The notes under the pieces: generated by a model
Database searches by the model: none
Told to the model about the DNA's origin: nothing
Seen by the model: only the letters and a program-made list of their open reading frames with translations
In this document: positions 16,559 to 63,008 of the stretch, one piece after another
Position numbering within the stretch: position 1 is the stretch's first letter
Layout of the letters: every line of letters begins with the position of its first letter
IMG/VR virus record: IMGVR_UViG_3300028772_000011
Span: 29,275-93,274 of that record
Direction: 5' to 3' (one strand)
Source of the DNA: a virus
DNA: 64,000 nucleotides
Made by a program: the position numbers and the translations under genes

Positions 16559-17563
16559 TTAAAATAAATTTATTGTATAATCTATATTATCTAAATCCTT
16601 TAATACCGAAGCTGCTTTTTCAACTTCGTTAACAAACAGATCAACATTCTTTGATAGCTCAGAAATACTATTTTCAACCTGAATAAAATGTTCATCATTC
16701 TGGTCGTATGCATATTCTGGTAGCCCCCAAATTGAATTAAGTGTTTTTCTTTTAATTAAATCAAAGCCTCTATTAGCCTCATCCGTTTCAACCATTATAT
16801 TATAGAAATTAGGATAAGACAATGTTTGGGTGTTAAAAAAAGCATTATATTTATTCTGTAATTCCAAGAACTTTTTACTATACTGTTGTAAAAACAAAGT
16901 ATTAATTTGAGGGACATCTTCATTGATAACCCTTCTAACGACATTTTCAATCAATGATTTTATATTTATATTTTCCATAATGAGGTCATTTTCTATTGCT
17001 AATTCTTTAATTTCTGTTTTATCGCTAGAATCGATTGAATCAGATGATAATAATGCTGACACAACTTCTTTCGTTACCAAACCACTCCTAAGTATTTCTT
17101 TAAATTTTTCAATATTATTTTCCACTAATATTATATTGTCAGAATCTGACTTAGCTAATGTTGCATTTTTAAATTTCGGATAAAAATATGGTATGTTATT
17201 GGTTTTTTTAAAATCATATATTTGACCGCATTTTATTTGAATAATATTTTCAATTGGAATTGATCTTGCAGCCCCTTGTATTCCATTAACATCGTATTGA
17301 GAATTATCTCTAATGAATAGTAAATCAAGATCACTCATTTTAACATCACGACTATTATTACTCTGACTTCTTTTGAGCATTGTATCAACATTCATTGTAG
17401 CATGAGTAATATTCCGCAATTCTCCTGTTGTTCTCTTCACAAACAATACAGAAAAATGTTGTTTTCCGTTAGCAATTTTATTCCATAATTCAACTGGGAA
17501 TATATGCCTGGAAAATGCTTCCGTTAAAGGTAATATGTCATTATTTTTTGCTGCGAGGATCAT
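16559..17563 (-). CDS. modular late protein with WYL_2/Sm-like domain
   Basis: FSVLFVKRTTGELR...RSIPIENIIQIK; internal IKSLIENVVRRVINE motif. Confidence 0.5.
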   Translation of the reverse strand: MILAAKNNDILPLTEAFSRHIFPVELWNKIANGKQHFSVLFVKRTTGELRNITHATMNVDTMLKRSQSNNSRDVKMSDLDLLFIRDNSQYDVNGIQGAARSIPIENIIQIKCGQIYDFKKTNNIPYFYPKFKNATLAKSDSDNIILVENNIEKFKEILRSGLVTKEVVSALLSSDSIDSSDKTEIKELAIENDLIMENINIKSLIENVVRRVINEDVPQINTLFLQQYSKKFLELQNKYNAFFNTQTLSYPNFYNIMVETDEANRGFDLIKRKTLNSIWGLPEYAYDQNDEHFIQVENSISELSKNVDLFVNEVEKAASVLKDLDNIDYTINLF

Positions 17564-18366
17564 TTAAGAATTTGTTTTAATAATAACTCTGGTATATTTT
17601 CATTAGTTGTACATATAGTATTCTTTTCATTATATATATTTTCAAACATTGGGGTTATCATCATATATTTTGTAAACTCAATTTTGTTTGTTACATATAT
17701 TAAATCAACCTTATTATCTTTACATAGTTTATTCTTTTTAATATCTCTACCAACATTTTTTATAAATCCAGTTTTTCCACCAAAATGTTCCATATGTGAT
17801 TCAAAATGTTGTTCTCCTTGGCACTCTATAGCTATTTTATAATCGGGTAAATAAAAATCTAAGGATTGTCGTCCAAGCCATCTAAATTTTTTCTGTTCAA
17901 TATATTCAATTTTATTATCCGTTAAAATTTTACCTATAAATACCTCTATTTTACTTTTTATTTTGCTACATTCTGGGCATCCGTGCTTCTCATTTGTATG
18001 CTTATTAGGCATTTGCCAGAATTCTCCGTGTATTGGACATATTATACATACAGGTAATTTGCTATGGGTATATTCAACTTTAGAATAATCATATTTATCT
18101 CCATGAACTAATATTGCATTTTCAATAAATTTATCTCTGGTTAATCTAATTGTGTTACCTCTTCTTTCGTTATAACACATTTGACAATCATTTATTTCGT
18201 TTTTACAAACTAACCAATTTGGTTTTGACTCCCAAGTATAATTGTGTATTGTACATTTAGCTGTTATGTATTTTTTATTTCCATTATATTGAGAAAGTAC
18301 TACCAAATGCGGCTTTATTATTTTAAGTTGTTCAACAAATTGTTCATGTGTAATTTTTGGCGGCAT
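17560..18366 (-). CDS. free-standing endonuclease: 2 zinc-binding (DUF723-like) repeats plus PD-(D/E)xK/Vsr-like domain
   Basis: HGDKYDYSKV..CPIHGEFWQ..GCPEC; QSLDFY..IAIECQGEQH. Confidence 0.8.
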   Translation of the reverse strand: MPPKITHEQFVEQLKIIKPHLVVLSQYNGNKKYITAKCTIHNYTWESKPNWLVCKNEINDCQMCYNERRGNTIRLTRDKFIENAILVHGDKYDYSKVEYTHSKLPVCIICPIHGEFWQMPNKHTNEKHGCPECSKIKSKIEVFIGKILTDNKIEYIEQKKFRWLGRQSLDFYLPDYKIAIECQGEQHFESHMEHFGGKTGFIKNVGRDIKKNKLCKDNKVDLIYVTNKIEFTKYMMITPMFENIYNEKNTICTTNENIPELLLKQILK

Positions 18367-18401
18367 TAATTTAAATTTAAACTTTTATTTAGTAATATCA
18401 T

Positions 18402-19124
18402 TTATAAAATACTTTTAGTTCCAAGAAAATAATTTAAACCCTCCAATATTTTTCCTTTATTATTTTGTTTTGATTCTACGTATTGTTTTAAATCATCCTG
18501 ATTATCAGCCAAATATGCACCTGGGGTCGATGGCGAACAAACAAAATCCCAACAGGTTATTTCAAAATCATCCTGTACAATATATTTACCAGTGAACTTA
18601 TCTTGTTCCACTGAACCAAGGCCTCTTGAAGAAATACCAAGTTTCCACCCAAGTCTTAAATAATTAGCAATTTGATCACCTTTGCAGGAAATAATTCCAT
18701 AGTTAATAAATCCTGGTGATAATATTAATTCAAGCTCACCAAATAATGTTTTATTTTCCCACCATAACTTATTGATACCGAATGCTAAACGGTCAAGATC
18801 TAAATTTATAGATTCTGGATGATTTGATTCGCCATACGACATCCTTTCATCAATCATTTTTTGATAAAGTTCAACTTGCTTCATTAATACGGATTTCGGA
18901 TATATCCTTCCGTTAGCATTTTCACAATTATACTTCTGTAGAATTGCATATACTTTCAATCTATCAACGATTTTAACTCCAGGTTCTTTACTACCAATCT
19001 TATTCAATTCAGTCCTTGCGTCCGAATTTCTTTCATCTCCTAAGTCGATGAAACCCCCATCTCTCTCGATTAAAATCCCGTATCCTTGATTGTTTTTCTT
19101 TATTTCGAATAGTTCTGAAGCCAT
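18402..19124 (-). CDS. gp21: prohead core protease (T4 gp21-like)
   Basis: NANGRIYP, GESNHP, GISSRGLGS, WDFVCSPSTPGA. Confidence 0.93.
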   Translation of the reverse strand: MASELFEIKKNNQGYGILIERDGGFIDLGDERNSDARTELNKIGSKEPGVKIVDRLKVYAILQKYNCENANGRIYPKSVLMKQVELYQKMIDERMSYGESNHPESINLDLDRLAFGINKLWWENKTLFGELELILSPGFINYGIISCKGDQIANYLRLGWKLGISSRGLGSVEQDKFTGKYIVQDDFEITCWDFVCSPSTPGAYLADNQDDLKQYVESKQNNKGKILEGLNYFLGTKSIL

Positions 19125-19140
19125 TTTAACTTATTTTTCA

Positions 19141-19148
19141 TATAAATA
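19141..19148 (-). promoter_or_regulatory. late promoter TATTTATA
   Basis: 16 nt before protease ATG. Confidence 0.6.
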
Positions 19149-19197
19149 GATTTAATTTGATAAATAACTGTATTTTTTAAAAATAATTTACTTAAGT

Positions 19198-19230
19198 ACT
19201 TGTTTTTTTAATATATTTTTAGTATATTTG
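19198..19230 (+). promoter_or_regulatory. Bacteroidota sigma-A-type promoter
   Basis: ACTTG-N20-TATATTTG. Confidence 0.7.
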
Positions 19231-19245
19231 TATAAAATATTAGGG

Positions 19246-19704
19246 ATGGTTGAGATTAAAAACACTAAAACAAAAAGAAATTCTCGCGAAATCAAATTAG
19301 ACTTAGAATCAGATAATTTCAAAGGAATTTTTGGGTCTACAAATAAATATGAACCGAATGTTATTTACATAAAATTAACTACTTGGATGAACCACACGGA
19401 ACCGATATATAATTATCCGTCGAATATGGAACAACTAAATAAAAAAATAAAAATAAAATTTGGGGAATACGTTAAAGATACAAATTCATTTGTTAGTAAG
19501 GTATTTTATAATTTAGATACAAAAACCGTATTAGTAAAAGAAGACGATTGTTTTCATGGGTCATTTGAATTTACAATAAAACAAGTTGAACCAACCGAAG
19601 TAGATATGGAAAAAATAAAACCAGTTATTGAAAAACTTTGTAATAAAATTATTAACTCAATGGAAATATCGTCTAATTTCAGTTTTAGATTGACAAAAAA
19701 ATAG
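19246..19704 (+). CDS. hypothetical protein
   Basis: start moved to ATG 19246 because the TTG at 19228 lies in the -7 element. Confidence 0.7.
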   Translation: MVEIKNTKTKRNSREIKLDLESDNFKGIFGSTNKYEPNVIYIKLTTWMNHTEPIYNYPSNMEQLNKKIKIKFGEYVKDTNSFVSKVFYNLDTKTVLVKEDDCFHGSFEFTIKQVEPTEVDMEKIKPVIEKLCNKIINSMEISSNFSFRLTKK

Positions 19705-19729
19705 CAACCGTATTTATTTGATTGCTATT
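19700..19729. terminator. bidirectional terminator
   Basis: AATAGCAA / TTGCTATT between convergent genes. Confidence 0.55.
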
Positions 19730-19739
19730 ATTTATTTAT

Positions 19740-22010
19740 TTATACTATTTCAAGAAATGAACCATCTGGTACAACCGCGGATACACTATCAAAATCTTCC
19801 CATATATTAGTATAATAATATCCTTGTTTTGCATTACCTTGTTTTAATTTACGACCCATCATTTCATTGGCCATTTCATCGCTACAAGGATCTTCGTATG
19901 TATTTGACATATCACCGATTATAACAACCTGAAAAATAGTTGGAACTGAATCAAATGGGATTAAATCTTTACTTGAAAAATAAACAGCTCTTTTCTTTCT
20001 TTGTTCTGGGTAATAATCATCATCTGGAACATCTTCTGTTGCATTAAAATTCATTATTGGGTCATACCCTATTATGTAATTCTTCCTTTCAAGTGTTTTT
20101 TTTCCAGCTAATAATGTTTTACCATATTCTCTTTTTCCATCCCATTCACCGACAGCTGGAACACCAATTTTTGCTTGTAATGCTTGTGTTGCAGCCATTT
20201 TTGTACCTATATGTATTCCACTTTTTCCGTTTAAAGATCTATCAGTAGTTCCGTGGTAAAACAAAGGGTGTCCATCTTTTAGTATAAGTTGTTCACGTAA
20301 GAAGTTTTTTTTTACTATATTTGATGTTTCTTCATTAATCACTAAACCTCTATCATCCAATTCTACAATATATAATTCATTTTCTTTTGCTAATGTTAAT
20401 ATATGATTTAATAATTTTTGTTTTGAATCATCAAATATACCATTCTCTGGAGATGGACCATAACACAATTTAAATTCGTGATTATTTAAAGGGGTTGATC
20501 CATTAACTTTATAAATATTTGGAAACCATTTAATAATATCTTTTTGTTTTTCCTTATCAAAATCAACTGATTGAGTACTAAAATTGATTTTATATATATT
20601 ACCACCATATATTAAACTACCATTTCTCCAGTCAACCAATTTAGAATTGATATTATTTTCTCTAATATTCCATTTTGCCTGACCATTTTTAATCATATCC
20701 TTATGATTCAAGCTTTCCTTATCACCGAATGCTGGCATATCAAACGCAATATCACCAATATTTCCCAAGGCGACTGCTTCATCGTTAATGATTCCACCAA
20801 GTTCATCGATTGAAAAATAACCATCTCTATCAACACCTAAATTGAAATCCTCAGCCTCAAAATATTCATCATCTTTATTATTATTATTATTTCCACCATT
20901 TAGCATACTATCAATAGAAGAAAAATCATTTTCTCTTTCAATTTGACGCTCTAAGCGATCTATAAACGACTTACCTTTTCTGGTACCAGCGAAAATTTCT
21001 TTTACTCTAACATTAAATTCATTTACTTCCAACGATATTAATTCAACGAATATTTCAGGTATCAGTTTTTTATTCTTAACACCATTAATAATTAAATCAT
21101 ATAATCCAACACCAAATCTTTTATCCCAGTTTTCAGCCAATAAAAAATCGGCCTTACCAATTACATATTCTGCATCTCGTATATTTTTTGGTAGTCCGTG
21201 AGAAGACATTAATTCCATCACACCTTTAATAGTTTCAAACACGAGTACTGGAAATATGATTGCCTCTGATACTATAGATGGTTCGGTAGATGACAAATTA
21301 ACTGAAACATACCCACCAAGGTTATTAGTTTCTGGTTTAATTTCCTTTACAAACGTTAGGTAATCATTTAACGCAATGATATTATAATATAATTCTGGTA
21401 GTTTAGGATTAAGTTCATAAATCTTGTTTAAAATAGTTGAGTAATCAGATGACAATCTCACAGACGCCCCTTGTATCAATGAATCTATTATTCGACGTTT
21501 ATATATTTCTTTTCCCAAATCATCCATTTCAGAAACCTCACCAAAATCCGTATCATCCAAAATAAGTGGTTCCAAATTCTGTTCCTTATCAGGTGTGATT
21601 ATATCCTTTAAAGAACACTCAATATCCAATTCACCAGGTTCTAAATTAAATTGTTCACAAACATATTCATAACATATTTTTTCAAGATCTTCACGTATGT
21701 TAATTTCAATTGATTTTGCTTTTGATATATATTCCGTTAACTTAGTAATTAAATAATTTTTATCATATTGTTCTAAGTCGTTTATTTTACCAACAGCTCT
21801 ACCAACTTCATTAAACCGTTTTAAAAGTAGTTTATATTCAAACGAACTCTCATCTCCTGGTGGGAAAGTAGGGTGATCACCTAACGAAGTCTTATGCTGT
21901 TTTATCGAATTACTTATGAATTTAGGTAAAGTAAGTTTATCCAACTGTTTTTCTTCAATTAGCTTCATTCTTAGTTCTTTCAATTGTGATTCCGTTATTA
22001 AAATATTCAT
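19740..22010 (-). CDS. multidomain virion protein with C-terminal ADP-ribosyltransferase-like domain
   Basis: N-terminal ILITESQLKELRMKLIEE motif; C-terminal PLFYHGT..GIHIGT..AA..GYYYTN..ED..SVSAVV. Confidence 0.55.
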   Translation of the reverse strand: MNILITESQLKELRMKLIEEKQLDKLTLPKFISNSIKQHKTSLGDHPTFPPGDESSFEYKLLLKRFNEVGRAVGKINDLEQYDKNYLITKLTEYISKAKSIEINIREDLEKICYEYVCEQFNLEPGELDIECSLKDIITPDKEQNLEPLILDDTDFGEVSEMDDLGKEIYKRRIIDSLIQGASVRLSSDYSTILNKIYELNPKLPELYYNIIALNDYLTFVKEIKPETNNLGGYVSVNLSSTEPSIVSEAIIFPVLVFETIKGVMELMSSHGLPKNIRDAEYVIGKADFLLAENWDKRFGVGLYDLIINGVKNKKLIPEIFVELISLEVNEFNVRVKEIFAGTRKGKSFIDRLERQIERENDFSSIDSMLNGGNNNNNKDDEYFEAEDFNLGVDRDGYFSIDELGGIINDEAVALGNIGDIAFDMPAFGDKESLNHKDMIKNGQAKWNIRENNINSKLVDWRNGSLIYGGNIYKINFSTQSVDFDKEKQKDIIKWFPNIYKVNGSTPLNNHEFKLCYGPSPENGIFDDSKQKLLNHILTLAKENELYIVELDDRGLVINEETSNIVKKNFLREQLILKDGHPLFYHGTTDRSLNGKSGIHIGTKMAATQALQAKIGVPAVGEWDGKREYGKTLLAGKKTLERKNYIIGYDPIMNFNATEDVPDDDYYPEQRKKRAVYFSSKDLIPFDSVPTIFQVVIIGDMSNTYEDPCSDEMANEMMGRKLKQGNAKQGYYYTNIWEDFDSVSAVVPDGSFLEIV

Positions 22011-22012: not shown

Positions 22013-23302
22013 TTATTTTTTTGTTAACATTTCAATCAATTCATTTTTTGTAAATGATTTCCTATCATATTTTTTATTGTTCTTATGCGCTTTATCTTTT
22101 GATTTGAAACCAGGTCCTTTATCATCCATCTCCATCTCCCTATCAGCCTTTTTAATTGCCTTTACATAATCACCATTCTTATCGCGAACAGCTTTTGCTT
22201 CGACCATCATACCAATAATTTGATTCTTTGTCACAATTATTTTTGATTCATTTGTATTACCAATTTCAATCTTATCAGTGTCTTTATTATATAATGTTGA
22301 ATCATTTTGCAATTTAGCCGTCTTTGCTTGTAATTGAGGATCATTAGCATCTAATTCATAGGTTGATTCTTCAATTGGTTGTTCTTTAATCCTGTGTTTT
22401 GGGTTTATTTGGTCCGTATATATAAAAGGTTCATTATCTTCTTTAATTAATGTATTTGCTATTTTTTGAAGCATCTCTGTTAATTCTCCTTTAGTCAATT
22501 TCATTGTGTTTTCTTTTACTTTGTTGTTATTATTTTTTTCATCCCAAAACTTATATAATGCTTTTTGTAATCTATTTTTAACGTTATCCGATAAAAGATT
22601 GTACCCACTAAATGTTTGTTTAAAAGTTTTTAATATCTGGTCAAAACTTCCACCCATATATCTTTTTGTTGCGAATTCAGAAAATCTTGCCCAATATTCG
22701 TGTGGCAAGGTTAAATATATTTGACGTGTTTTATCATCCATCACCGCACCTGGACTAAGAGGCTTATAATTTAAATTTTTATAGTAGTTTTTTGATTTTT
22801 TGTCATTTGCATAATTACCATTACTTCTAAAATCATCATAAGCGTGTTGTAGTTCATGTATCAAGATATTACGAATAGCCGACCCAAGTGAAATTCGCAA
22901 TAATTGAGCTGCTTTTTCTACCGACCAGTCAGTTTTTAATTTATAAAATTCAACACCATAACCTATTTCAGCAACAAATTCATTAAAATTTTCAATTTTT
23001 AACCATATTTCCCCACCGCTTTTCTTACCGTTTGGTATAAATACACCTGAAGAACTAAAATTATTTATGAAACGTATATTAATATCAGTTTTATCAATAA
23101 AATCTTTTAATAATGGATATATTGATTTATCATAGATTATATCACATAAAAACCCATATTCAAAATTAAAATATTCCTCAGAATCCAAACCGTTTATTAT
23201 TCTTTTAATAAAATCCGTATTCTTATCTGCGAAAAATTGAACTATCTGAATGGATAATTTTTCTATCTCAGTTATTTCAGCGTATCCTTCTTTTAATTCC
23301 AT
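22013..23302 (-). CDS. zincin-type metallopeptidase domain virion protein
   Basis: ILIHELQHAYD plus downstream HEYWARFSE; three copies of the cargo-like motif in the C-terminal third. Confidence 0.65.
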   Translation of the reverse strand: MELKEGYAEITEIEKLSIQIVQFFADKNTDFIKRIINGLDSEEYFNFEYGFLCDIIYDKSIYPLLKDFIDKTDINIRFINNFSSSGVFIPNGKKSGGEIWLKIENFNEFVAEIGYGVEFYKLKTDWSVEKAAQLLRISLGSAIRNILIHELQHAYDDFRSNGNYANDKKSKNYYKNLNYKPLSPGAVMDDKTRQIYLTLPHEYWARFSEFATKRYMGGSFDQILKTFKQTFSGYNLLSDNVKNRLQKALYKFWDEKNNNNKVKENTMKLTKGELTEMLQKIANTLIKEDNEPFIYTDQINPKHRIKEQPIEESTYELDANDPQLQAKTAKLQNDSTLYNKDTDKIEIGNTNESKIIVTKNQIIGMMVEAKAVRDKNGDYVKAIKKADREMEMDDKGPGFKSKDKAHKNNKKYDRKSFTKNELIEMLTKK

Positions 23303-24117
23303 TTTTTACCTGTTTTAATATCAGATATTACACTAGGTCCAACCCCATACAACACAGCGATATCTTTTTGCTTCATCGTATGTGATTTTAATAGTTCCTT
23401 TATTTCCATTACTATTTCAGGTTTTAATTTAAAATGAAAGTTTCCAGAACTAAAATTCTTTTTTGAATTTATTTTATGAGTAACCCACTCAAGATTTTCC
23501 ACTCTATTATCTGTTTTAACATTGTTAATATGATTAACTTCGCAACCTTTTTTATATTCACAAAATGCCATTGCAACTAATCTATGTACACGAAGCGTTT
23601 TTCTGACTCCCTTATCATTATTTAATGCAATGAAACAATATTTATCACTCGATAGATTTTGTTTTAAAATAAATGAATCTACTTTCTTTATTCTACCTAA
23701 ATTAGAAACAAGGTATTTTTTAAAACCAATTATTTCTTTCCATTCCTCATCTTTTAAATCTTTAATTTCAATGTTTTTATAAATTTGCCTTGCTGAATTA
23801 CGATAATCTTGTTCAATTCTCGCTTGTTTTATATCCTCATATTCAACATTAATCTCCATAATAGGAATAAATCCATCAATATTAACATTAATTACATCAC
23901 CATAGTATTTAATGGTTTCAATATATGGCTGAGTAAATTGGTAATTAATAAATATAAAATTATCTCCGTTCCATTGTGCAACTCTTGTATTTCTACATGT
24001 TCCAGTATAATAAAATCCTTTTTTTAATTCACTTTTTAGTATCAAAATATGTAGGTTATAAATATATTTATTTTTATTAAATTTAGAATACAAAATCTTT
24101 CGAATCAGTTCCTTCAA
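23293..24117 (-). CDS. NUMOD4-HNH homing endonuclease with extra N-terminal domain and C-terminal HTH
   Basis: EEWKEI..YLVSNLGRIK; VHRLVA..F; VNHINNVKTDNRVENLEWVT..N; QKDIAVLYGV. Confidence 0.85.
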   Translation of the reverse strand: MKELIRKILYSKFNKNKYIYNLHILILKSELKKGFYYTGTCRNTRVAQWNGDNFIFINYQFTQPYIETIKYYGDVINVNIDGFIPIMEINVEYEDIKQARIEQDYRNSARQIYKNIEIKDLKDEEWKEIIGFKKYLVSNLGRIKKVDSFILKQNLSSDKYCFIALNNDKGVRKTLRVHRLVAMAFCEYKKGCEVNHINNVKTDNRVENLEWVTHKINSKKNFSSGNFHFKLKPEIVMEIKELLKSHTMKQKDIAVLYGVGPSVISDIKTGKKWN

Positions 24118-24505: not shown

Positions 24506-24796
24506 TTACATCATTGGTCTTATTTGATCTTTTTCACTTGCTTTAATCGTGTTAATAATTTCATATCTAACTATGTTATTAAACTCTTTATCCAGCCTTT
24601 GTTTAATGAAGCTATCCATATTTTTAGCCGCATCATTCTCATCTTTAAACACAAGTGAAAACGATAAATCACATTCATCAAAACCAGCAAATAACACCCT
24701 AGTATGGATTTTATATGTAACCATTGACCAAGGGTCTGTGTATTCTAATATAACTTTTTTAATTACATTTTTTAGGTTGCTTTCGTTTAAAACCAT
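24506..24796 (-). CDS. small putative head-internal protein
   Basis: begins LNESNLKNVIKKVILE (cargo-like motif); first gene after late promoter. Confidence 0.55.
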   Translation of the reverse strand: MVLNESNLKNVIKKVILEYTDPWSMVTYKIHTRVLFAGFDECDLSFSLVFKDENDAAKNMDSFIKQRLDKEFNNIVRYEIINTIKASEKDQIRPMM

Positions 24797-24810
24797 ATGA
24801 TTGACATTTT

Positions 24811-24825
24811 ATTTTAATATAAATA
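24811..24825 (-). promoter_or_regulatory. late promoter TATTTATATTAAAAT
   Basis: exact 15-mer. Confidence 0.7.
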
Positions 24826-38917: not shown

Positions 38918-39931
38918 CTATTTAAATTCAGGTGCTTTAAAAATGTTTTTCTTTCCAGAGGGCTTTCTATTAGACATTTCTGAATCATCACCCCTTAACA
39001 TTCGATCAATTAATTCATCAATAGTTTCGCTTTCTTTGACAAGCTTTTTCTTATTCTTATTATTAATTCCTTTACTTTCCATTTTAGGTGGTGCTTGTTG
39101 TAAATCATCCCCTCCTTCTATTGGTGCTTCACTTGGCATTCCTTGTTCTGGTGGTACATCACTTGTTTGTCCAATAGATGCACTATCTGTAACATCACCA
39201 CCATCTACTTTACCAATATTATCTTGAACTTTTTTAATTACGTCCTGAGCGTCTTCTGGACTCATATTTGGTATTGAGGCACTTATGATGCTATTAGTGG
39301 CGAATTTATTAAGGTCTCCGTCTTTTGTTGTTTCATTATAAGCCCTTAAACTTTGAGCTAACTTGCCCGATAATTGTTGTATAAATAATTTCGGATCTGT
39401 TGCTTCATCAGCTTCAACGCCAGCATCAAATTTCTCATTTCCAAATGGGTTTTCATTCTGTTGTGGTTCACCCATTGGCGGTTGACTTACACCCATATCA
39501 GGAGCTTCTTGAGACATTTCAGGTTGAACTTGTGATTGTGGAACAGGTAGTTTTAATTTCACCTGTTGTCCACCGTTCACATCTATTTCAGTGAGTTTTT
39601 TTTTAGACTCGTCCATTTCATAAGGTTGGTCTTCATCATCAACAAAGTCAGATTGTCCATAGAATTGTTCAATGGTTTCATTCGAACCCGTTAATTCTTT
39701 AAATTTTTCAAAAGCAATGTCTGTATTTCTAAATGGTTTTGCTTTTTTTAATTGTCCTAAATTATCATATAATATAATTGTAGATCCTTCATTTGCATTT
39801 TTTGACCTTAATTCTACCTTACCATCCTTTGACGCTCTAATGAGATTACCATATTCACTTTCAACACTATAATCACCAAATTCATCTGATTGTTCTGGCC
39901 CATTCAACATATCACGTTGCATATTTAGCAA
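38918..39931 (-). CDS. acidic putative head protein; probably the -1 frame extension of the upstream gene
   Basis: weak TTG start; frame stays open back to the TTTAAAAAAAAAA run in the upstream ORF. Confidence 0.65.
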   Translation of the reverse strand: MLNMQRDMLNGPEQSDEFGDYSVESEYGNLIRASKDGKVELRSKNANEGSTIILYDNLGQLKKAKPFRNTDIAFEKFKELTGSNETIEQFYGQSDFVDDEDQPYEMDESKKKLTEIDVNGGQQVKLKLPVPQSQVQPEMSQEAPDMGVSQPPMGEPQQNENPFGNEKFDAGVEADEATDPKLFIQQLSGKLAQSLRAYNETTKDGDLNKFATNSIISASIPNMSPEDAQDVIKKVQDNIGKVDGGDVTDSASIGQTSDVPPEQGMPSEAPIEGGDDLQQAPPKMESKGINNKNKKKLVKESETIDELIDRMLRGDDSEMSNRKPSGKKNIFKAPEFK

Positions 39932-39957
39932 GTGGTTTTCATCATCATAACCCTCTT

Positions 39958-41577
39958 TTATTTTACTTTTTTTTTTAAATCCCTGATAATGCTTTCAGCC
40001 AATTTATCCATATAACCTTTGGTCTTTTCAATATCATCTTTTGGTTTCATTTCAGTTTTTGCATCCTTTGGTTCAGCAACCAATTCAGCTTCTGCTTTTT
40101 CTGGTGTAACCAATGTTCCATCTGCCTTAGGTTTTTGGATTGCATATTGCCTTGTTCCACCACCTGGCATTGTCATAGGTTCTTTACCAAATGAATCAAC
40201 TTTTCCAAATACATTCAAAATAGCCTCAGTCAATTCATCTTCATCTATTTCATACATTTTTTCTTCTTCGAAAGGCTGTGTTCCATCCAAATCAACTGAT
40301 TCAACATCATCTTCAAATCCAGCGTTGTCATTGTATTCTTGTGGTTCAATATCTAAATTGTCTTCATCATTACCATTTGGGTCTCTTGTTACTTCTTGGT
40401 AAATAGGATTACGATCTAAAATAACATAAAGATTATCCTCCAGATTTTCCAAATCAACTTTTGTATTATTTGTTGGGTCATATCTAAAACCCTTATCAGC
40501 CTTATAATCTTGTCGAATAGTACCAATCAGATCAATTAAATCTTCCATATAAAGATATTCATCATAATCAGCCATTCTATCTGGCATTTTATATACTTTA
40601 TCTTTAATCAAATTTAATGTTCTACTTACCTCTGGATTATTACTAGATAATTTATCAACATCAAATTTCATTTTACGAGTGTTGATATCCTGGCCTTCAG
40701 TTACAACTTCGGCTTTGGTTCCTGGTGTTAAATCAGCTTGGTGAGCTACTGGTGGTACTGCTGGCGCATTTGGGTCTACTGGTGGTTTAGCTGGTGTTAC
40801 AATTGCTGGAACAACAGGTGTAGTTGATGTGGTTGTAGAAACTGCTTGAATAGCTTCCTCGGCCAATTTAGCTTTAACATTTTTCAATTGAAGTCCAGTA
40901 ATTTTAAATTTCTTACCTGCTTTCGAAGGATCGGCTTCCATATCTGGTTTAACTTCATCATTGAAAGGAATTCCGACCTTAGTTGGTTCCACATTTCCCT
41001 TACTTGGTACTTCAGTTCCTTTTGGTTCAGTTACTTTATCGGTAAATGGTTCGGCTTTTTTATCAGCATCTGTAGATGTAATCTTCAAAACTGGTTTATA
41101 TCCAAGGTCTTCTTTCAATATACCAGATGTTTTGAACATGATCTCACGTTGACGAGCAAGTTCTTTACTCATTTCAACGCGTTCTTCTGCTATAATTGTT
41201 TCTTTTGTATCTGGATTAAATGAATCAACAATGCGACCTTTCTGATTTTTAGCTTCGTTAATTGAACGCAATTTAAACTCAAGGTTTTTAACAGCCAAAG
41301 CATACGAATTATTTTCACACATTGATTTATATCCAATTCCACCAACATAGTCGAAATCTTGTTTCAATGGATTTTCCGTTTTTCCAGAAACTTTAATATA
41401 GTATTTATTGCTTTCACGTACAATACCATAGCATTTACCGTCAGCTGCTATTTTTTTATACTCAACGATTTCAGATGAATAGTTTTTATTGTCAGATTCA
41501 GCAAATACACTGAAATTCATTAATCGTTTCATCTCATTTAACTTATTATCAAATGAATTATCGGTGGTTTTAGCCAT
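39958..41577 (-). CDS. acidic putative head/prohead core protein
   Basis: late promoter; LNEMKRLM, ADGKCYGIVRE; many (I/L)xE sites. Confidence 0.7.
   Translation of the reverse strand: MAKTTDNSFDNKLNEMKRLMNFSVFAESDNKNYSSEIVEYKKIAADGKCYGIVRESNKYYIKVSGKTENPLKQDFDYVGGIGYKSMCENNSYALAVKNLEFKLRSINEAKNQKGRIVDSFNPDTKETIIAEERVEMSKELARQREIMFKTSGILKEDLGYKPVLKITSTDADKKAEPFTDKVTEPKGTEVPSKGNVEPTKVGIPFNDEVKPDMEADPSKAGKKFKITGLQLKNVKAKLAEEAIQAVSTTTSTTPVVPAIVTPAKPPVDPNAPAVPPVAHQADLTPGTKAEVVTEGQDINTRKMKFDVDKLSSNNPEVSRTLNLIKDKVYKMPDRMADYDEYLYMEDLIDLIGTIRQDYKADKGFRYDPTNNTKVDLENLEDNLYVILDRNPIYQEVTRDPNGNDEDNLDIEPQEYNDNAGFEDDVESVDLDGTQPFEEEKMYEIDEDELTEAILNVFGKVDSFGKEPMTMPGGGTRQYAIQKPKADGTLVTPEKAEAELVAEPKDAKTEMKPKDDIEKTKGYMDKLAESIIRDLKKKVK
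39967..39979 (-). other. candidate -1 frameshift / slippage site (U UUA AAA, A10)
   Basis: GAT TTA AAA AAA AAA GTA AAA TAA; -1 frame continues into the 38918 ORF. Confidence 0.55.
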
Positions 41578-41599
41578 TTTTTTAATTATTTATTTAATT

Positions 41600-41614
41600 A
41601 TTTTAATATAAATA
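41600..41614 (-). promoter_or_regulatory. late promoter TATTTATATTAAAAT
   Basis: exact 15-mer. Confidence 0.7.
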
Positions 41615-41655: not shown

Positions 41656-43737
41656 TCATTTAATTGAATTAATTTTATCGTAGGTCACAAGTTTCAAATC
41701 AATTAATTTTTCGAAGTATCCATTACGTCTTAAAACTTTAAAAACTATATTACCTATTGAGAGTTCACCATCTTCAGATTCCAATCCTTGTTTCCTTAGT
41801 TTCTTGATTTTATCGTAAAGTTTTTTTGTTTTATTCGATATTACTGTAAGCTCAGTGAAATTAGGTTTTGATTTATAATCTTTTAATAAATTTTCAATGC
41901 TTGTCATAATAGTTGAGGCCTTTTCTTTAATTTTTTTCTTATCAAAATCAGCATCATTTATTATTTCTGGTTTACTTAACCATTTATTTTTTTCCAATGA
42001 AAATTGACCAACAGATGCGTTTTCTTGTTTTATATCCTGTACATACAACTCAATAGGAAATCCAAATATCTTTAGATTTTCATGATCTTCGTTCCATAAT
42101 CTTCTCTTTGAATCAAAATACTCTGTAACTAATTCAATATTTTTATTTATTTTACTAAAATCTACAATCAAATGTAAATCAACATCTGAATAGCTTGACC
42201 AATTGAAATTAGCCATACTTCCAAGGAAAACTATGTCATTAACCTTTTTAATATCAATTGTTAAGTATTCAATAAAATCATCCGCTATTTTAAGTAAACG
42301 TTTCCTTACGATTGGTTTTAACTTACCAGATTCATCCCAAAACTTAGTATTTAATTCTTTTTTAGGTTTAAAAGAACTAAGATTTACGTCTTCAATTGTT
42401 GCTTCGGTTAATTTATTGTTATTAATTTGTTTACAATAATCCCAAACAGATGGTGATATAATTATTTCTGACTTATTATGATTACTATTTGTCCATATCA
42501 TATTATTAGTTGTTGTAATATTTTTAGTTAAATCTAACAATCCACCCCTACTATTTACAACCCTCAAAAAAAACCTATCACCGTTTTTAATCAAACTATT
42601 AATTACACCTCTATCTTTAAAATTGTATATTCGTTTACCATCCCTACGACCACCATAAGAACCATAAAGACCTATAGTTTTACCAACTAAATATTCACAA
42701 TCAATATTTTCTGGATTATTTCCTATTCTTAATTCGACTTCTTCAATTTTTTTTGGAATCCTAAACGTTGCGGCTTTTTTGCCATTAATAGTAGGCATAC
42801 CAAAATCATCCTCGCCAATAGTCTTTATAACAACTTTCTTATTTTTAAACTTACCCATCATTATAGTATCACCAACTTTAACTGGTAATTTAATTTCCTC
42901 TTCCAGATGTTTATTGATTTCATTTAATTGTTCTTTTGTAATCAATATTGTTTTTCCTTCTCCCATTCCATAACGTTTATAATGATTATATTCAGCCTGA
43001 GTTACATTCCCCAACTTATCTCCGATATTTTTATATTTTGCATCTAAAGAGGCTTTCATTTGTGGTGTTTTCATTTTCTCAGCGGATGATAATGTGTGAA
43101 TATTTTGCATTTCACTTGCTGATGAATCATTTGACCCCATGAAATTCTTTACAGGGATTAAATTTCCAATTTTACTATTGGTTTCCCATTCGTAATCTGG
43201 TTCATAGTCCTCATCATCAGCATCTAAATCGGCCTGATACTCATTTGTCTTAATTTCAATCCTATAATTCGAGAAATCTACTTTCAAGCCATAAATGTGC
43301 TCAATTTCAGTTGAAAGTTCTTTTAATAGACTTGGCATTTTATTTTTATCTGGATACTGCCAAAATGATATAACTTTACTATTAGTCCACAATCTTCCAG
43401 GGTGTTCAAAACTACTCCTATCCGATCCAATTCCATTATCACCATATAATACACCATAAAAGTCAGATATACCACGATGCATTTGCATCTTTTCAACAGA
43501 TTTCCAGGCCGTATGATCAATTTCATATTTTTTATCCTGAGATATCTTATTTGACTCAAAAAATAATGTATTATTATATCCAACAAAAGCTCTCCCATTT
43601 AAGAAACCAAAAGCTATCGCATCATCATTTGACCAATGAGCTATCAGATCATCATAACTATTCAATACTTTATCTGGGCTCTCATTTAAATGATTCCTAA
43701 CCTCTTCTAATTGAGCTTTTGTTATTTTAATATTCAT
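41656..43737 (-). CDS. modular virion protein with C-terminal Pol-beta-family nucleotidyltransferase
   Basis: GSMANFNWSSYSDVDLH..IELYVQD; two I-x-I-T-K-x-Q-L motifs. Confidence 0.8.
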   Translation of the reverse strand: MNIKITKAQLEEVRNHLNESPDKVLNSYDDLIAHWSNDDAIAFGFLNGRAFVGYNNTLFFESNKISQDKKYEIDHTAWKSVEKMQMHRGISDFYGVLYGDNGIGSDRSSFEHPGRLWTNSKVISFWQYPDKNKMPSLLKELSTEIEHIYGLKVDFSNYRIEIKTNEYQADLDADDEDYEPDYEWETNSKIGNLIPVKNFMGSNDSSASEMQNIHTLSSAEKMKTPQMKASLDAKYKNIGDKLGNVTQAEYNHYKRYGMGEGKTILITKEQLNEINKHLEEEIKLPVKVGDTIMMGKFKNKKVVIKTIGEDDFGMPTINGKKAATFRIPKKIEEVELRIGNNPENIDCEYLVGKTIGLYGSYGGRRDGKRIYNFKDRGVINSLIKNGDRFFLRVVNSRGGLLDLTKNITTTNNMIWTNSNHNKSEIIISPSVWDYCKQINNNKLTEATIEDVNLSSFKPKKELNTKFWDESGKLKPIVRKRLLKIADDFIEYLTIDIKKVNDIVFLGSMANFNWSSYSDVDLHLIVDFSKINKNIELVTEYFDSKRRLWNEDHENLKIFGFPIELYVQDIKQENASVGQFSLEKNKWLSKPEIINDADFDKKKIKEKASTIMTSIENLLKDYKSKPNFTELTVISNKTKKLYDKIKKLRKQGLESEDGELSIGNIVFKVLRRNGYFEKLIDLKLVTYDKINSIK

Positions 43738-43750
43738 TTAGTTGTTGGGT

Positions 43751-43765
43751 ATTTTAATATAAATA
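43751..43765 (-). promoter_or_regulatory. late promoter TATTTATATTAAAAT
   Basis: exact 15-mer. Confidence 0.7.
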
Positions 43766-59209: not shown

Positions 59210-59210
59210 G

Positions 59211-59591: not shown

Positions 59592-59596
59592 ATTAT

Positions 59597-59836: not shown

Positions 59837-59860
59837 ATAAAAAACTAAAAAACTAAAAAT

Positions 59861-60583: not shown

Positions 60584-61032
60584 AAAACTTTTACATGAAC
60601 GTAGGTGATCTACTAAAAAAATTAAAAGGAATGGATATTCCAGATGATGTCCCTGTGGTTTATCAACGAATTGAAGATAGATATTTTGATGGTAATGATA
60701 TCAGTGGAATGCGCGGGTCAGCATCAAGTGGAGCAATTGATGGGGTATTCCCTCCAGGAACAAAATCAAAAGGTTGGGATACAGTAAAGATTAAAGGTGA
60801 TTTATATTATCAAATGGTTCACCATAACGAACAATTAGACAGAGGTAAACTTGTCAATGAAGGTAAATTAGACGAAGATGAGGTTGGTAGATACTATTGG
60901 TCAGATGAATATAAAGATGTTCGAGAATATTATGATCTTAATGATGAAAAATTACTTGATGAATATGTTGGAGTGTTTGATTGTTTCTATGACGAAGAAA
61001 AAAACGTACTTTGTATAACAGCACATTATTAG
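60580..61032 (+). CDS. hypothetical protein
   Basis: 150-aa ORF, ATGA overlap. Confidence 0.7.
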   Translation: MKNFYMNVGDLLKKLKGMDIPDDVPVVYQRIEDRYFDGNDISGMRGSASSGAIDGVFPPGTKSKGWDTVKIKGDLYYQMVHHNEQLDRGKLVNEGKLDEDEVGRYYWSDEYKDVREYYDLNDEKLLDEYVGVFDCFYDEEKNVLCITAHY

Positions 61033-61035
61033 ACT

Positions 61036-61419
61036 ATGATTAATAATATATTAAAATGCTGGAATCACATTCCATATACGATTAAACATTATATTGCCTT
61101 TTTAAAACTCCAAAAGAAATTACTTGGTTATTCCAAATATAAATTTCATGACTTGGATAAAATATTTATGTATATATTAATTCCGTTTATTGGTACTAAA
61201 AGAATAAAAAAAATCCATAAAGCTATTAATAGACACCATATTATTGATACAAAGCGTAGAAGTTGTAACTACGAGGAAGCAATTATTGATTGGGAATGTT
61301 CTCGATCAACAAAACCAGATAAACCATATACGGCCAGAGACGTTGCAAATTTTCCCAAATTTAAAAATACAAAACATTATCCTGAGTTAATTAAACAACT
61401 TAATAAGTTTAATCTTTAA
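61036..61419 (+). CDS. HD-like metal-binding protein (DUF5662-like)
   Basis: HDLDK..HKAINRHH..IIDWEC. Confidence 0.55.
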   Translation: MINNILKCWNHIPYTIKHYIAFLKLQKKLLGYSKYKFHDLDKIFMYILIPFIGTKRIKKIHKAINRHHIIDTKRRSCNYEEAIIDWECSRSTKPDKPYTARDVANFPKFKNTKHYPELIKQLNKFNL

Positions 61420-61489
61420 TAATAAAAGATAAGTGTGAATATTGTAACTTATAATAAAAAATACTTTAAAATTATTAAAATTATTATTG

Positions 61490-61497
61490 TATTTATA
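61490..61497 (+). promoter_or_regulatory. late promoter TATTTATA
   Basis: 14 nt before ATG 61512. Confidence 0.55.
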
Positions 61498-61511
61498 TAA
61501 AAACAAATATC

Positions 61512-61904
61512 ATGATTATATTAATAATACTTTCTATCTTATTAGCGTTGCTTTCTGGTATAGCTAAAGCAGTTTGTGATACATCATCGATAAATGGCTC
61601 GAGTGATAAACTTTCTTCTTTAAAACAAAGCTATTGGCGTAAATCAATTAGCTCTGTAAACAAGTGGAAAAATAACGACCCAAAACAAGGTGAAAAATTC
61701 TGGGGTAGTTCCACTGTTTTAGTATCACTAACAGACGCTTGGCATTTATTTGATGTCATACGAGATTTTAGTTTTATATTCTGTGGAATAACCTTGGTTT
61801 TTATATTTAATGTTAATGGTATATCTCTTTGGTATATATTATTACTTTATCCAATAAAACAATCGATATTTGAAATATTTTATCGCTGGCTTAGAAAGCC
61901 ATAA
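61512..61904 (+). CDS. late membrane protein
   Basis: N-terminal TM, TDAWH motif, two C-terminal hydrophobic segments. Confidence 0.65.
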   Translation: MIILIILSILLALLSGIAKAVCDTSSINGSSDKLSSLKQSYWRKSISSVNKWKNNDPKQGEKFWGSSTVLVSLTDAWHLFDVIRDFSFIFCGITLVFIFNVNGISLWYILLLYPIKQSIFEIFYRWLRKP

Positions 61905-61980
61905 AAAGGAAAACCCATCAGGTAGCGATACTCGATGGGTTTATTTTTCGCCGAAACGAAACAACGGTCCTAAACGTTAT
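61905..61980 (-). ncRNA. three-hairpin structured element ending in a bidirectional terminator
   Basis: minus strand AUAACG-UUUAGGAC-CGUUGU, UUUCGU-UUCG-GCGAAA, AAACCCAUC/GAUGGGUUU plus U-tract. Confidence 0.5.
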
Positions 61981-61984
61981 GATT

Positions 61985-62650
61985 CTACCTATTTGGAAAA
62001 GTTTCTTTTTTATTTGCTGTTCTGGAAAGATTCTGTAAAAATTTTGCTAATTTTTGACCCTTATCACCCAATTTACCCTGTTGAAGAGCATTCATGACTT
62101 CTGAAATACCAGCACTTGCTAAGAAAACACCAACGGTACCAGCAGCAACAGGTATTAATTCTTCAAAACCCTCATTAATAGTAGATTCATCTATATCAGG
62201 ATTAACATTAGAATATTTATCCTTGTTTTTAATAGCCTTTTTGAACATTCTACTAATCAATTGTAATGTAGGTATGCCATCATATTCCATATCACGGCTT
62301 CTAATTATATCAACATTTGGTTTACCTTGGTTGGAATGAGGTGAATAACTAACAATTTTCAAAGCACCATTTCTATAAATAATTGGATCATAAGTATATG
62401 GTTCTTCCCAAGTACTATTAGGTTCAATTACACCAATTTTATCGCCATCTGAATCGACCGCCTGGGCTATTAATTCATTAATTTGATTTACATATTTTTC
62501 AATTTTTGGGATATTACGAGCAACACCTTCTTTTATTTGATTTTTCGAAATAGTTATTTTTTTTGATTCACCCAATAGAATCGTTTGGTTTTCTATAGTT
62601 TCACTTACCATAGAACGTAATACGCTTTCTTTAACCTTTATTTTTGTCAT
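61985..62650 (-). CDS. putative head-internal protein
   Basis: KIKVKESVLRSMVSETIE and KKITISKNQIKE motifs; late operon. Confidence 0.6.
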   Translation of the reverse strand: MTKIKVKESVLRSMVSETIENQTILLGESKKITISKNQIKEGVARNIPKIEKYVNQINELIAQAVDSDGDKIGVIEPNSTWEEPYTYDPIIYRNGALKIVSYSPHSNQGKPNVDIIRSRDMEYDGIPTLQLISRMFKKAIKNKDKYSNVNPDIDESTINEGFEELIPVAAGTVGVFLASAGISEVMNALQQGKLGDKGQKLAKFLQNLSRTANKKETFPNR

Positions 62651-62672
62651 TTTATATTTATTTTAATTGTAT

Positions 62673-63008
62673 TTATGATATATAAAAATTTAATTCGTAA
62701 TTATTCCCCCTACCAAAATTTAACCCCATATTATATACTTGTATACTGAGAGTTTTTCGAGTTAATTTTTCATCTTTCCACAATCCAATATTTGCTTTTG
62801 TAGTTTGACCATCCCTTGGTTTACCCTGACCAACATTAATCTGATTAAACCAATCATCTTCATCCACCACATAACCTTTGGATTCAGCTATTGACCTTGC
62901 ATATTGGACCGCACCTGAAAATGTAGACCAATATACGTTTTCAGACACGGCTTCTTTTATGAATTTTTTAATTAAAGTTTTTAATTTAATAGTATCTTGA
63001 TCGTTCAT
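62673..63008 (-). CDS. putative head-internal protein
   Basis: LKTLIKKFIKEAVSE N-terminal motif; first gene after late promoter. Confidence 0.6.
   Translation of the reverse strand: MNDQDTIKLKTLIKKFIKEAVSENVYWSTFSGAVQYARSIAESKGYVVDEDDWFNQINVGQGKPRDGQTTKANIGLWKDEKLTRKTLSIQVYNMGLNFGRGNNYELNFYIS

What the first reader, a model, noticed from the sequence alone, without database searches (positions are those of the whole stretch)
16559..63008. Candidate capsid-cargo system: late modular proteins with a shared targeting/cleavage motif and swappable effector domains
Seen: otherwise unrelated minus-strand late genes share a short amphipathic motif, usually ending in (I/L/V)xE. Examples: MNIKITKAQLEEVRNHLNE and KTILITKEQLNEINKHLEE (41656-43737); MNILITESQLKELRMKLIE (19740-22010); MKLTKGELTEMLQKIANTLIKE, KIIVTKNQIIGMMVE and KSFTKNELIEML (22013-23302); MVLNESNLKNVIKKVILE (24506-24796); KIKVKESVLRSMVSETIE and KKITISKNQIKE (61985-62650); LKTLIKKFIKEAVSE (62673-63008); IKSLIENVVRRVINE (16559-17563). 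The motif sits at termini or apparent domain junctions. Flanked domains include a nucleotidyltransferase, an ART-like domain, a zincin and a WYL-like barrel. Established: T4 gp21 cleaves after (I/L)xE, and T4 internal proteins and Alt are packaged, processed and injected. Inference: the motif addresses proteins to the prohead, the protease (18402-19124) cuts them into single effectors, and these are ejected with the DNA. It could be an anti-defence arsenal and an engineerable packaging tag.
Basis: partly seen in the sequence, partly recalled or inferred. Interest (0 to 1): 0.9.

Follow-up and report, generated by a model that had tools for sequence, protein, structure and literature searches.

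The report
Phage capsid-cargo leader peptide family
An uncultured T4-like phage puts one short leader peptide, ending in the cutting motif of its own head protease, on unrelated enzymes and at the joints of multi-enzyme chains, most likely to load them into the capsid; this extends a mechanism known from phage T4, and nothing has been measured yet.

Summary
The motif is real. A pattern for it hits 10 times in the 93-kb genome against 0.55 in shuffles. A profile built from 80 related contigs finds 98 copies against 0 in shuffled or reversed controls. Consensus: M-K-K-φ-φ-(K/R)-L-T-E-S-(D/Q)-L, then an amphipathic helix ending φ-x-E.

Three more strong copies lie outside the window.

The phage has a gp23-type capsid protein and a gp21-type protease with its catalytic His and Ser. 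The capsid protein carries a conserved φφxE site where T4 gp23 is cut.

The best evidence is comparative. The ART-like, nucleotidyltransferase and 370-aa core domains all occur elsewhere as stand-alone proteins with interchangeable short leaders. On the ART-like family, 27 of 117 leaders look like the proven T4 capsid-targeting sequence. Both internal joints match N-terminal leaders of stand-alone homologues.

Motif genes share an exact 16-base promoter with the scaffold gene.

My reading is a T4-style capsid-targeting propeptide system with a new leader family. Packaging, cleavage and ejection are inferred, not shown.

This scan has reported similar systems before on other DNA.

The parts
12559..14364 (-). 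gp23-type major capsid protein. The predicted maturation site I-M-K-E is at 14182-14193.
   Evidence: Pfam PF07068 at 1e-67. In 77 aligned relatives an invariant φφxE precedes the conserved mature N-terminus.
14411..15712 (-). Scaffold (gp22-like) protein: an N-terminal helix ending M-T-E, a long acidic tract and a conserved C-terminal helical domain. Two exact late-promoter 16-mers lie upstream at 15735-15750 and 15846-15861.
   Evidence: Position directly upstream of the capsid gene in all loci; alignment A3. A leader HMM built without scaffolds still hits the scaffold N-terminal helix in more than 20 loci; hhalign probability 89%. Promoters.
18402..19124 (-). gp21-type (S77) prohead serine protease
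   Evidence: PF03420 at 1e-21. T4 gp21 structure 5jbl at 3e-16; His102 and Ser165 align with the two positions that read Ala in that crystal form.
19740..22010 (-). 756-aa cargo chain: leader (21954-22010), conserved 370-aa core domain, internal joint (20292-20345) and ART-like domain (19743-20291)
   Evidence: Leader scores 23.9 bits. The core family has 862 clusters, 45% with this leader type at the N-terminus. The joint aligns with N-terminal leaders of stand-alone ART-like proteins. ART fold.
22013..23302 (-). 429-aa protein: HExxH zincin-like N-domain (22511-23302), then three motif copies at 22439-22507 (strong), 22199-22243 (chance level) and 22016-22060 (moderate)
   Evidence: Scores of 18.4, 3.5 and 7.6 bits. 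SprT-like/M76 hits are below threshold.
24506..24796 (-). 96-aa first gene of the operon 24796 to 19740. It has a leader-like N-terminus (24743-24796) and an exact promoter 16-mer at 24810-24825.
   Evidence: 12.0 bits. Promoter.
41656..43737 (-). 693-aa cargo chain: leader (43681-43737), domain A, second leader at the joint (42898-42954), small barrel (42739-42891), insert, and nucleotidyltransferase (41659-42402). An exact promoter 16-mer lies at 43750-43765.
   Evidence: Leaders score 19.8 and 20.5 bits. phrog_36119 at 1e-40. In homologue P0254 the leader is N-terminal, ahead of the same barrel plus NTase (after a ~35-residue linker). P0248 has leader plus NTase only.
39958..41577 (-). 539-aa protein of unknown function with the same exact promoter (41599-41614). 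It is a possible further head or cargo protein.
   Evidence: Promoter. It follows the NTase chain in L008 and L015 as well, there within 10 kb upstream of the capsid gene.
62673..63008 (-). 111-aa protein with a helix-only version of the motif (62940-62990). An exact promoter 16-mer lies at 63016-63031.
   Evidence: 9.2 bits. Promoter.
61985..62650 (-). 221-aa protein downstream of the 111-aa gene. Its two proposed motif copies are weak (62591-62650) and moderate (62528-62563).
   Evidence: 2.9 and 6.0 bits.
16559..17563 (-). 334-aa accessory protein inserted in the head operon, with a helix-only motif at 16919-16963
   Evidence: 7.0 bits. The gene is absent from the closest relative L001, where the lysin gene follows the protease directly.

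Best explanation
The motif is a capsid-targeting propeptide, the functional counterpart of the T4 internal-protein CTS.

Proposed steps:
1. Late in infection, the same promoter that drives the scaffold gene drives a set of unrelated proteins. Each begins with a leader of about 20-25 residues: a short strand (φ-φ-K/R-L-T-E-S-D/Q-L) followed by an amphipathic helix ending φ-x-E.
2. The helix resembles the N-terminal helix of the phage's own scaffold protein. The leader probably co-assembles with the scaffolding core inside the growing prohead.
3. The gp21-type protease then cuts after the Glu and frees the mature protein inside the head, from where it can leave with the DNA.
4. In the 693-aa and 756-aa proteins, genes that are separate elsewhere have been fused in frame with their leaders retained. 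The internal leaders lie at module joints, bracketed by φxE sites, and are candidate cutting points that would release single enzymes.

Shown: the motif, its distribution, the protease and capsid families, leader exchange, and the promoter sharing.
Inferred: binding to the core, cleavage, packaging and ejection.
For: 1. Real, family-wide leader.
- 98 HMM hits against 0 in controls.
- 45 of the 66 non-scaffold hits start within the first 10 residues.
- Sequences diverge completely after the final Glu (alignment A4).
- A 119-aa member retrieves 1221 protein clusters, and most of the listed hits share only the leader, at about 80-90% identity.
- Five relatives carry 3-12 copies each.

2. T4-type machinery.
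- gp23 capsid protein and S77 protease.
- Catalytic His and Ser are present.
- An invariant φφxE lies at the expected capsid maturation site in 77 relatives.
- 54 of 66 leaders end in [ILVM]xE.

3. Leader exchange on the same cargo.
- 146 stand-alone homologues of the ART-like domain were found. In 100 of 117 examined, a short leader ends in φxE within 12 residues of the domain.
- 27 of those leaders resemble T4 MKTYQEFIAE. 16-19 are of this window's type.
- T4 sequences were read from NC_000866.
- The first-half leader sits at the N-terminus in 45%, 16% and 17% of the core, ART and NTase families, against 1% for internal windows.

4. Joints equal leaders.
- The 756 joint aligns with N-terminal leaders of P0121 and P0125.
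- The 693 internal copy is the N-terminal leader in P0254.

5. Co-regulation.
- The exact 16-mer TATTTATATTAAAATA occurs 6 times against 0.012 expected.
- It occurs only upstream of the scaffold, three motif-gene units and the 539-aa gene.
- All strong motif genes fall in putative late units (Fisher p = 0.005).

6. Resemblance to the scaffold N-terminal helix.

7. Precedent. The T4 CTS, gp21 processing and the packaged ART enzyme Alt are established (PMC9026906 section 2.6; PMC3012670; PMC5694885).
Against: - There are no virion proteomics, no cleavage data and no cultured relative. The motif is absent from deposited phage genomes.
- φxE is common by chance, at 2.2 per 100 residues. The tripeptide alone proves little.
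- The leader has no sequence similarity to the T4 CTS.
- Some copies sit at the extreme C-terminus (genome 21954-22487; 22016-22060). There, cutting would release only a few residues.
- The 79-aa and 180-aa proteins outside the window have their φxE earlier than the family norm.
- About a third of the core family lacks any leader.
- 'Late' is inferred from a promoter motif, not from expression.
Confidence: 0.6

Rival explanations
1. N-terminal leaders do target proteins to the head. The internal copies are only fossils of gene fusion, so the long proteins are packaged or act as whole chains and are not cut into single effectors.
For: The internal copies are explained by fusion of leader-bearing genes. 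φxE sites are frequent by chance. Some virion polyvalent proteins, such as N4 vRNAP, are packaged unprocessed (PMC5512222).
Against: All three internal leaders are bracketed by φxE on both sides. The 693 internal copy is as well conserved as the N-terminal ones, at 20.5 bits. Multiple cuts within one substrate are normal for gp21-type proteases (PMC5694885).
Confidence: 0.2
2. The motif is a general assembly or oligomerisation helix. It could be a coiled-coil handle or a tag for another virion part such as neck, tail or baseplate. It is unrelated to the head core and is not removed.
For: It is an amphipathic helix. Copies occur at C-termini. Motif genes are scattered over the genome, one pair next to tail-fibre genes.
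Against: On the same cargo domain it is interchangeable with T4-CTS-like leaders. It ends in the protease motif. It shares the scaffold's exact promoter. It resembles the scaffold N-terminus. The cargo are enzymes that act on cytoplasmic targets.
Confidence: 0.12
3. The conserved 5' gene segment is kept for DNA-level reasons, such as a recombination cassette for shuffling genes or a translation-start context. It is not kept for a function of the peptide.
For: In the gut branch even the in-frame codons upstream of the start are conserved (the Y-Y-N before M-N-K-K in P0031, P0042, P0059 and others). This points to conserved upstream DNA.
Against: In this genome, leader-coding DNA is only 30-67% identical between copies, while the peptide pattern is kept. 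Internal and C-terminal copies have no start context.
Confidence: 0.05
4. Compositional artefact of a Lys/Glu/Ile/Leu-rich proteome.
Against: Shuffled and reversed proteomes give 0 hits where the real one gives 98. The motif also has a strong preference for the N-terminus.
Confidence: 0.02

Closest known systems
Phage T4 internal proteins IPI, IPII, IPIII and Alt: capsid targeting sequence (CTS) removed by the prohead protease gp21
   Same: Short N-terminal leader shared by otherwise unrelated proteins. It ends in (L/I)xE. The genome has a gp21-family protease and a gp23-family capsid protein with its own propeptide. The cargo includes an ART-fold enzyme, as T4 packages Alt. The variable cargo set is consistent with an arms race.
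   Different: The leader sequence is unrelated to MKTYQEFIAE and about twice as long (strand plus helix, with a 4-residue length variant). It is also used internally, at joints of multi-module proteins, and sometimes at C-termini. It resembles the scaffold N-terminal helix. Nothing has been shown experimentally here.
Propeptides of head and ejection proteins of giant phages phiKZ, 201phi2-1 and SPN3US, cut after Glu by gp21-like proteases
   Same: Many head-internal proteins are processed after Glu by a diverged gp21 homologue. Multiple sites occur per substrate. The propeptides are thought to target the prohead (PMC5694885).
   Different: Those propeptides are mostly over 100 residues long and are shared only within paralogous families. 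They are not one portable short tag on unrelated domains. Their cleavage motif is (S/A/G)xE.
Polyvalent proteins of phages and conjugative elements (Iyer et al. 2017, PMC5512222)
   Same: Several effector-type domains (ART, nucleotidyltransferase, zincin-like) in one polypeptide, encoded among late virion genes and predicted to travel with the DNA. One homologue of the ART-like domain carries Pfam ART-PolyVal.
   Different: In polyvalent proteins, processing is ascribed to built-in zincin-like peptidases, and packaging often to MuF or portal fusions. Here the joints carry a repeated leader with head-protease-type sites.
Encapsulin cargo-loading peptides (from my own knowledge)
   Same: A short portable peptide directs diverse enzymes into an HK97-fold shell.
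   Different: Encapsulin tags are usually C-terminal, bind the shell protein directly and are not removed. There is no protease, scaffold or DNA.

Membership tests
T4-type CTS / internal-protein system | gp21-family (S77) prohead protease encoded in the same genome, with catalytic residues | tested here: met
   PF03420 at 1e-21. 5jbl at 3e-16, with His102 and Ser165 in place.
T4-type CTS / internal-protein system | gp23-type capsid protein with an N-terminal propeptide ending in φxE | tested here: met
   PF07068 at 1e-67. The φφxE site is invariant in 77 relatives. The cut itself is inferred.
T4-type CTS / internal-protein system | One short N-terminal leader shared by otherwise unrelated proteins | tested here: met
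T4-type CTS / internal-protein system | Leader ends in the protease motif (L/I)xE | tested here: met
   54 of 66 against 12.5 expected. 100 of 117 leaders on the ART-like family.
T4-type CTS / internal-protein system | Sequence similarity of the leader to the T4 CTS (MKTYQEFIAE) | tested here: not met
   The T4 sequences differ from alignment A4. T4-like leaders do occur on orthologous cargo in other phages.
T4-type CTS / internal-protein system | Proteins present in the virion, leader removed, protein ejected | not testable with these tools
   No cultured relative.
T4-type CTS / internal-protein system | Late expression together with the head core | tested here: inconclusive
   An exact 16-mer promoter is shared with the scaffold. 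There are no expression data.
Polyvalent proteins | Two or more effector-type domains in one polypeptide among late virion genes | tested here: met
   The 693-aa protein has NTase plus other modules. The 756-aa protein has the core plus an ART-like domain. In L008 and L015 the NTase chain lies within 10 kb upstream of the capsid gene.
Polyvalent proteins | Zincin-like peptidase module for processing | tested here: inconclusive
   HExxH in 22013-23302, with only sub-threshold SprT-like/M76 hits.
ADP-ribosyltransferase fold (ART-PolyVal, PF18760) | ART fold with a conserved His / Tyr / Glu set | tested here: inconclusive
   The model has pLDDT 89.9. The top VIA rows are almost all ART-fold proteins, but Z is only 4-6. 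Foldseek finds nothing at E<=0.001. Pfam does not hit the window's domain, and PF18760 is recorded on one homologue. His27 is invariant, and Tyr173/174 and Glu179 are nearly invariant.
Pol-beta-type nucleotidyltransferase (PF01909) | Match to the family model | tested here: inconclusive
   E = 0.0017 at 19.2 bits, below the cut-off of 21. PF01909 is recorded on many close homologues. phrog_36119 at 1e-40.

The most novel reading that the evidence does not exclude
A second, independently evolved capsid-address tag exists. It copies the N-terminal helix of the phage's own scaffold protein. It serves an entire uncultured clade of T4-like phages, including ~360-kb gut and rumen-type jumbo phages. 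It also acts as an excisable joint, so that fused multi-enzyme chains are loaded as one unit and cut into separate injected effectors by the head protease. Leader types (T4-like, this one, and at least one more in the same genome) would then be lineage-specific 'postcodes' matched to the scaffold. They would allow cargo genes to move between phages by swapping only the tag.
Probability: 0.3. Interest if true: 0.7.

Novelty: new variant of a known kind. Interest (0 to 1): 0.55.

Why it matters
If the reading holds, a simple sequence tag would identify which proteins of a large, wholly uncultured phage clade travel inside the capsid. That makes the 'first-minute' arsenal of these phages readable from sequence. 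It includes an ART-fold enzyme, a nucleotidyltransferase, a very widespread 370-aa domain with no clear match to any solved fold, and more than a thousand small orphan proteins.

It would also show that the T4 CTS principle is general and modular. Different lineages would use different tags on the same cargo. Gene fusion at tag boundaries would build protease-jointed polyproteins.

The engineering idea, packaging foreign proteins by a tag, is not new; it has been done in T4. A second, longer tag with a likely scaffold-mimic mechanism could still help to find what the tag binds, which is not known even in T4.

Tried and rejected
- Complex prediction of the scaffold (A3) with the leader (A4) gave 'no answer' (score 0.00). 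It says nothing either way.
- Foldseek against the PDB gave no match at E<=0.001 for the ART-like model or for the 370-aa core model.
- For the core, VIA-align gave only Z of about 5, to helical zincin-type peptidases, and the family has no HExxH. I do not assign it a fold. BFVD gave one uncharacterised phage protein.
- Literature search for the motif strings found nothing relevant.
- megablast and tblastn against deposited phages found no close relative and no motif-bearing protein.
- The 8-base TATTTATA alone is not enriched genome-wide (56 found against about 47 expected). Only its position and the extended 16-mer are informative.
- My first transcription-unit test missed the 756 and 429 genes because my ORF caller truncated the TTG-start HNH gene. 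I corrected this by hand.
- Whole-protein hmmsearch with the 24-column model undercounts the short leaders of the core family. I replaced it with a first-half matrix with an internal-window null.
- The DNA-repeat explanation is rejected for this genome, because leader-coding DNA is only 30-67% identical between copies.

Full report
**What the window is.** The window is the last 64 kb of a single 93,274-bp virus record with 28% G+C. It encodes the following head proteins:
- a gp23-type major capsid protein (12559-14364, PF07068 at 1e-67);
- a gp21-type S77 prohead protease (18402-19124, PF03420 at 1e-21);
- between them, an acidic scaffold protein (14411-15712).

The protease matches the solved T4 gp21 (5jbl, 3e-16). 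It has His102 and Ser165 at the two positions that read Ala in that crystal form. That these are the catalytic residues comes from my own knowledge of that structure.

No close relative exists among deposited phages. IMG/VR holds at least 588 contigs with a capsid protein related to the query. I fetched the best 80 of them (48-61% identical) with 10-kb flanks. Some of these records are ~360 kb and rated complete, so this record may itself be a fragment.

**Is the motif real?** Yes.
- A regex for its core hits 10 times in 122 ORFs, against 0.55 in shuffles.
- A profile iterated over the genome and the 80 loci finds 98 instances at 9 bits or more. It finds none in shuffled or reversed proteomes.
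- The family consensus is M-K-K-φ-φ-(K/R)-L-T-E-S-(D/Q)-L-x-x-φ-φ-K-x-(φ)-φ-x-E. One variant is a helical turn longer.
- Of the 66 instances outside scaffold proteins, 45 start within the first ten residues of proteins that are mostly 80-230 aa long.
- 54 of the 66 end in [ILVM]xE at +16 to +24, against 12.5 for random positions. This is partly circular, because those columns are in the model.
- After that Glu the sequences have nothing in common (alignment A4).

Three more strong copies lie in the same genome before the window.

The leader-coding DNA is only 30-67% identical between copies. The conservation is therefore at the peptide level.

**How widespread is it?**
- A 119-aa member from locus L009 retrieves 1221 protein clusters of 65-209 aa at E<=0.01. 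Most of the listed hits share only the leader, at about 80-90% identity, on contigs of up to 366 kb. None carries a functional annotation.
- Five related records carry 3-12 leader-bearing frames each, scattered along the genome.
- I found no paper that prints the motif.
- No deposited phage genome holds it.

**The key comparative result.** Three unrelated conserved domains of the window's long proteins occur elsewhere as separate proteins with interchangeable short leaders.

*(a) The C-terminal 183 residues of the 756-aa protein.*
- They have 146 mostly stand-alone homologues of about 190 aa.
- In 100 of 117 examined, a leader of 10-30 residues ends in φxE within 12 residues of the first conserved strand.
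- 27 of these leaders resemble the T4 capsid-targeting sequence. P0170, P0196 and P0209 are examples. I read the T4 sequences from the T4 record itself: IPII and IPIII begin MKTYQEFIAE.
- 16-19 are of the window's type (P0142, P0129, P0131). Others are helix-only.
- The window's internal joint before this domain (20292-20345) aligns with the N-terminal leaders of P0121 and P0125.

*(b) The nucleotidyltransferase of the 693-aa protein.*
- It stands alone in Lak, Maribacter and cyanophage genomes.
- In the large protein collection it carries varied N-terminal extensions. P0248 has the window-type leader directly on the domain.
- In P0254 the leader is N-terminal, ahead of the same small barrel plus NTase after a ~35-residue linker. 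That makes the window's internal copy (42898-42954) the counterpart of an N-terminal leader.

*(c) The first 370 residues after the leader of the 756-aa protein.*
- They form a family of 862 cluster representatives.
- It lies in the head-gene block of 27 of the 80 loci.

With a first-half leader matrix, I set the threshold at the 99th percentile of internal windows. The N-terminus passes in 45% of the core family, 16% of the ART-like family and 17% of the NTase family. So the leader is portable. On the same cargo it alternates with a tag whose capsid-targeting role is experimentally proven in T4 (PMC9026906 section 2.6; PMC3012670).

**Link to the protease and the core.**
- The capsid proteins of 77 relatives carry an invariant φφxE directly before the conserved mature N-terminus. 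T4 gp23 is cut at the equivalent place.
- The protease N-termini carry a conserved L-I-E. The T4 review describes the same for gp21.
- A leader profile built without any scaffold sequence still hits the N-terminal helix of the scaffold protein at the same position in more than 20 loci, at 6-13 bits. Controls give 1-2 hits at 7 bits or more among about 1470 proteins. Profile-profile probability is 89%.
- This scaffold likeness is suggestive, not proven. It fits a leader that co-assembles with the core by imitating the scaffold.
- All three internal leaders are bracketed by φxE sites. φxE is frequent by chance, however, at 2.2 per 100 residues.

**Co-regulation.**
The exact 16-mer TATTTATATTAAAATA occurs six times in the genome, against 0.012 expected.
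- All six are in sense orientation on the minus strand, 23-38 nt (one at 149 nt) before start codons.
- They sit before the scaffold gene (twice), the operon 24796 to 19740, the 693-aa gene, the 539-aa gene and the 111-aa gene.
- After correcting one truncated ORF call, all six strong motif genes lie in putative late units (Fisher p = 0.005). All ten strong-plus-moderate genes do too (p = 0.0001).
- Timing is inferred from the motif's position before the portal, protease and scaffold genes. It is not inferred from RNA.

**The cargo.**
- The ART-like model is confident (pLDDT 89.9). Nearly every top row of the structure search is an ART-fold protein: RES and ParT toxins, an anti-CRISPR ART, PARPs and diphtheria-type toxins. 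One row is a module of a cyanophage pre-ejectosome protein. Z is only 4-6, however, and Foldseek finds nothing significant.
- One homologue carries Pfam ART-PolyVal, and the protein atlas gives the same lead. I call the domain ART-like and make no claim of activity.
- The NTase assignment rests on phrog_36119, a sub-threshold PF01909 hit, and PF01909 recorded on close homologues.
- The 'zincin' is an HExxH motif with sub-threshold hits only.
- The 'WYL-like barrel' was not tested.

**Verdict.** The best explanation is a T4-style capsid-targeting propeptide system with a new, longer leader family that also marks the joints of fused cargo chains (confidence 0.6).

The principle is known from T4 and from the giant phages, and multi-domain virion cargo is known as polyvalent proteins (PMC5512222). 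I therefore rate the finding as a new variant of a known kind.

This scan has already reported similar leader and joint systems in other T4-like phages. Those are unchecked AI notes, and I did not use them as evidence. Packaging, cleavage, ejection and any anti-defence role remain untested.

Noticed in passing
genome 6304-6969 and 6979-7344 (minus strand, about 22 kb before the window; locus L086): Two paralogous proteins begin with a different leader-like peptide (pattern φ-F-E-φ-M-x-K-L-N-x-D-F ... L-N-E). The same peptide type heads six stand-alone homologues of the ART-like domain (P0145, P0153, P0159, P0164, P0172, P0178). The genome seems to use at least two leader families.
   Followed up: partly
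window 20871-21953 (residues 20-380 of the 756-aa protein): A conserved 370-aa domain with 862 cluster representatives. It stands alone or is fused at either end of proteins of up to about 2000 aa. The predicted structure is very confident (pLDDT 92.6) but has no clear solved relative. There are only weak (Z about 5) likenesses to helical zincin peptidases, and the family has no HExxH. It sits in the head-gene block of 27 of 80 related loci.
   Followed up: partly
window 15903-16541: A GH19/endolysin-like gene (phrog_181 at 3e-46) sits inside the head operon between the protease and scaffold genes. It holds the same place in the closest relative L001. That is an unusual position for a lysin.
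   Followed up: no
window 17560-18366 and 23293-24117: Two HNH-type homing endonuclease genes are inserted in the head and cargo operons. The first, together with the 334-aa gene, is absent from relative L001.
   Followed up: partly
window 38918-41577: The 539-aa and 337-aa proteins have no family match. The 539-aa gene has the exact scaffold-type promoter, and it follows the NTase chain in L008 and L015 too. They may be further head-core or cargo proteins.
   Followed up: partly
proteins P0031, P0042, P0059, P0078, P0108 (gut-type branch): Gene calls that start upstream read the same in-frame residues (Y-Y-N) before the leader's Met. The DNA just upstream of the start codon is therefore conserved across unrelated genes. 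It may be a shared promoter or start context.
   Followed up: no
whole record (93,274 bp): Relatives with the same capsid type include records of about 360 kb rated complete and 90-126-kb records rated about 30% complete. This record may be a fragment of a jumbo phage.
   Followed up: no
window 42403-42738 (residues 334-445 of the 693-aa protein): Compared with homologue P0243, the window protein has an extra module of about 110 residues between the barrel and the nucleotidyltransferase. It is flanked by I-E-E and L-T-E, so it looks like a module inserted at a joint.
   Followed up: partly
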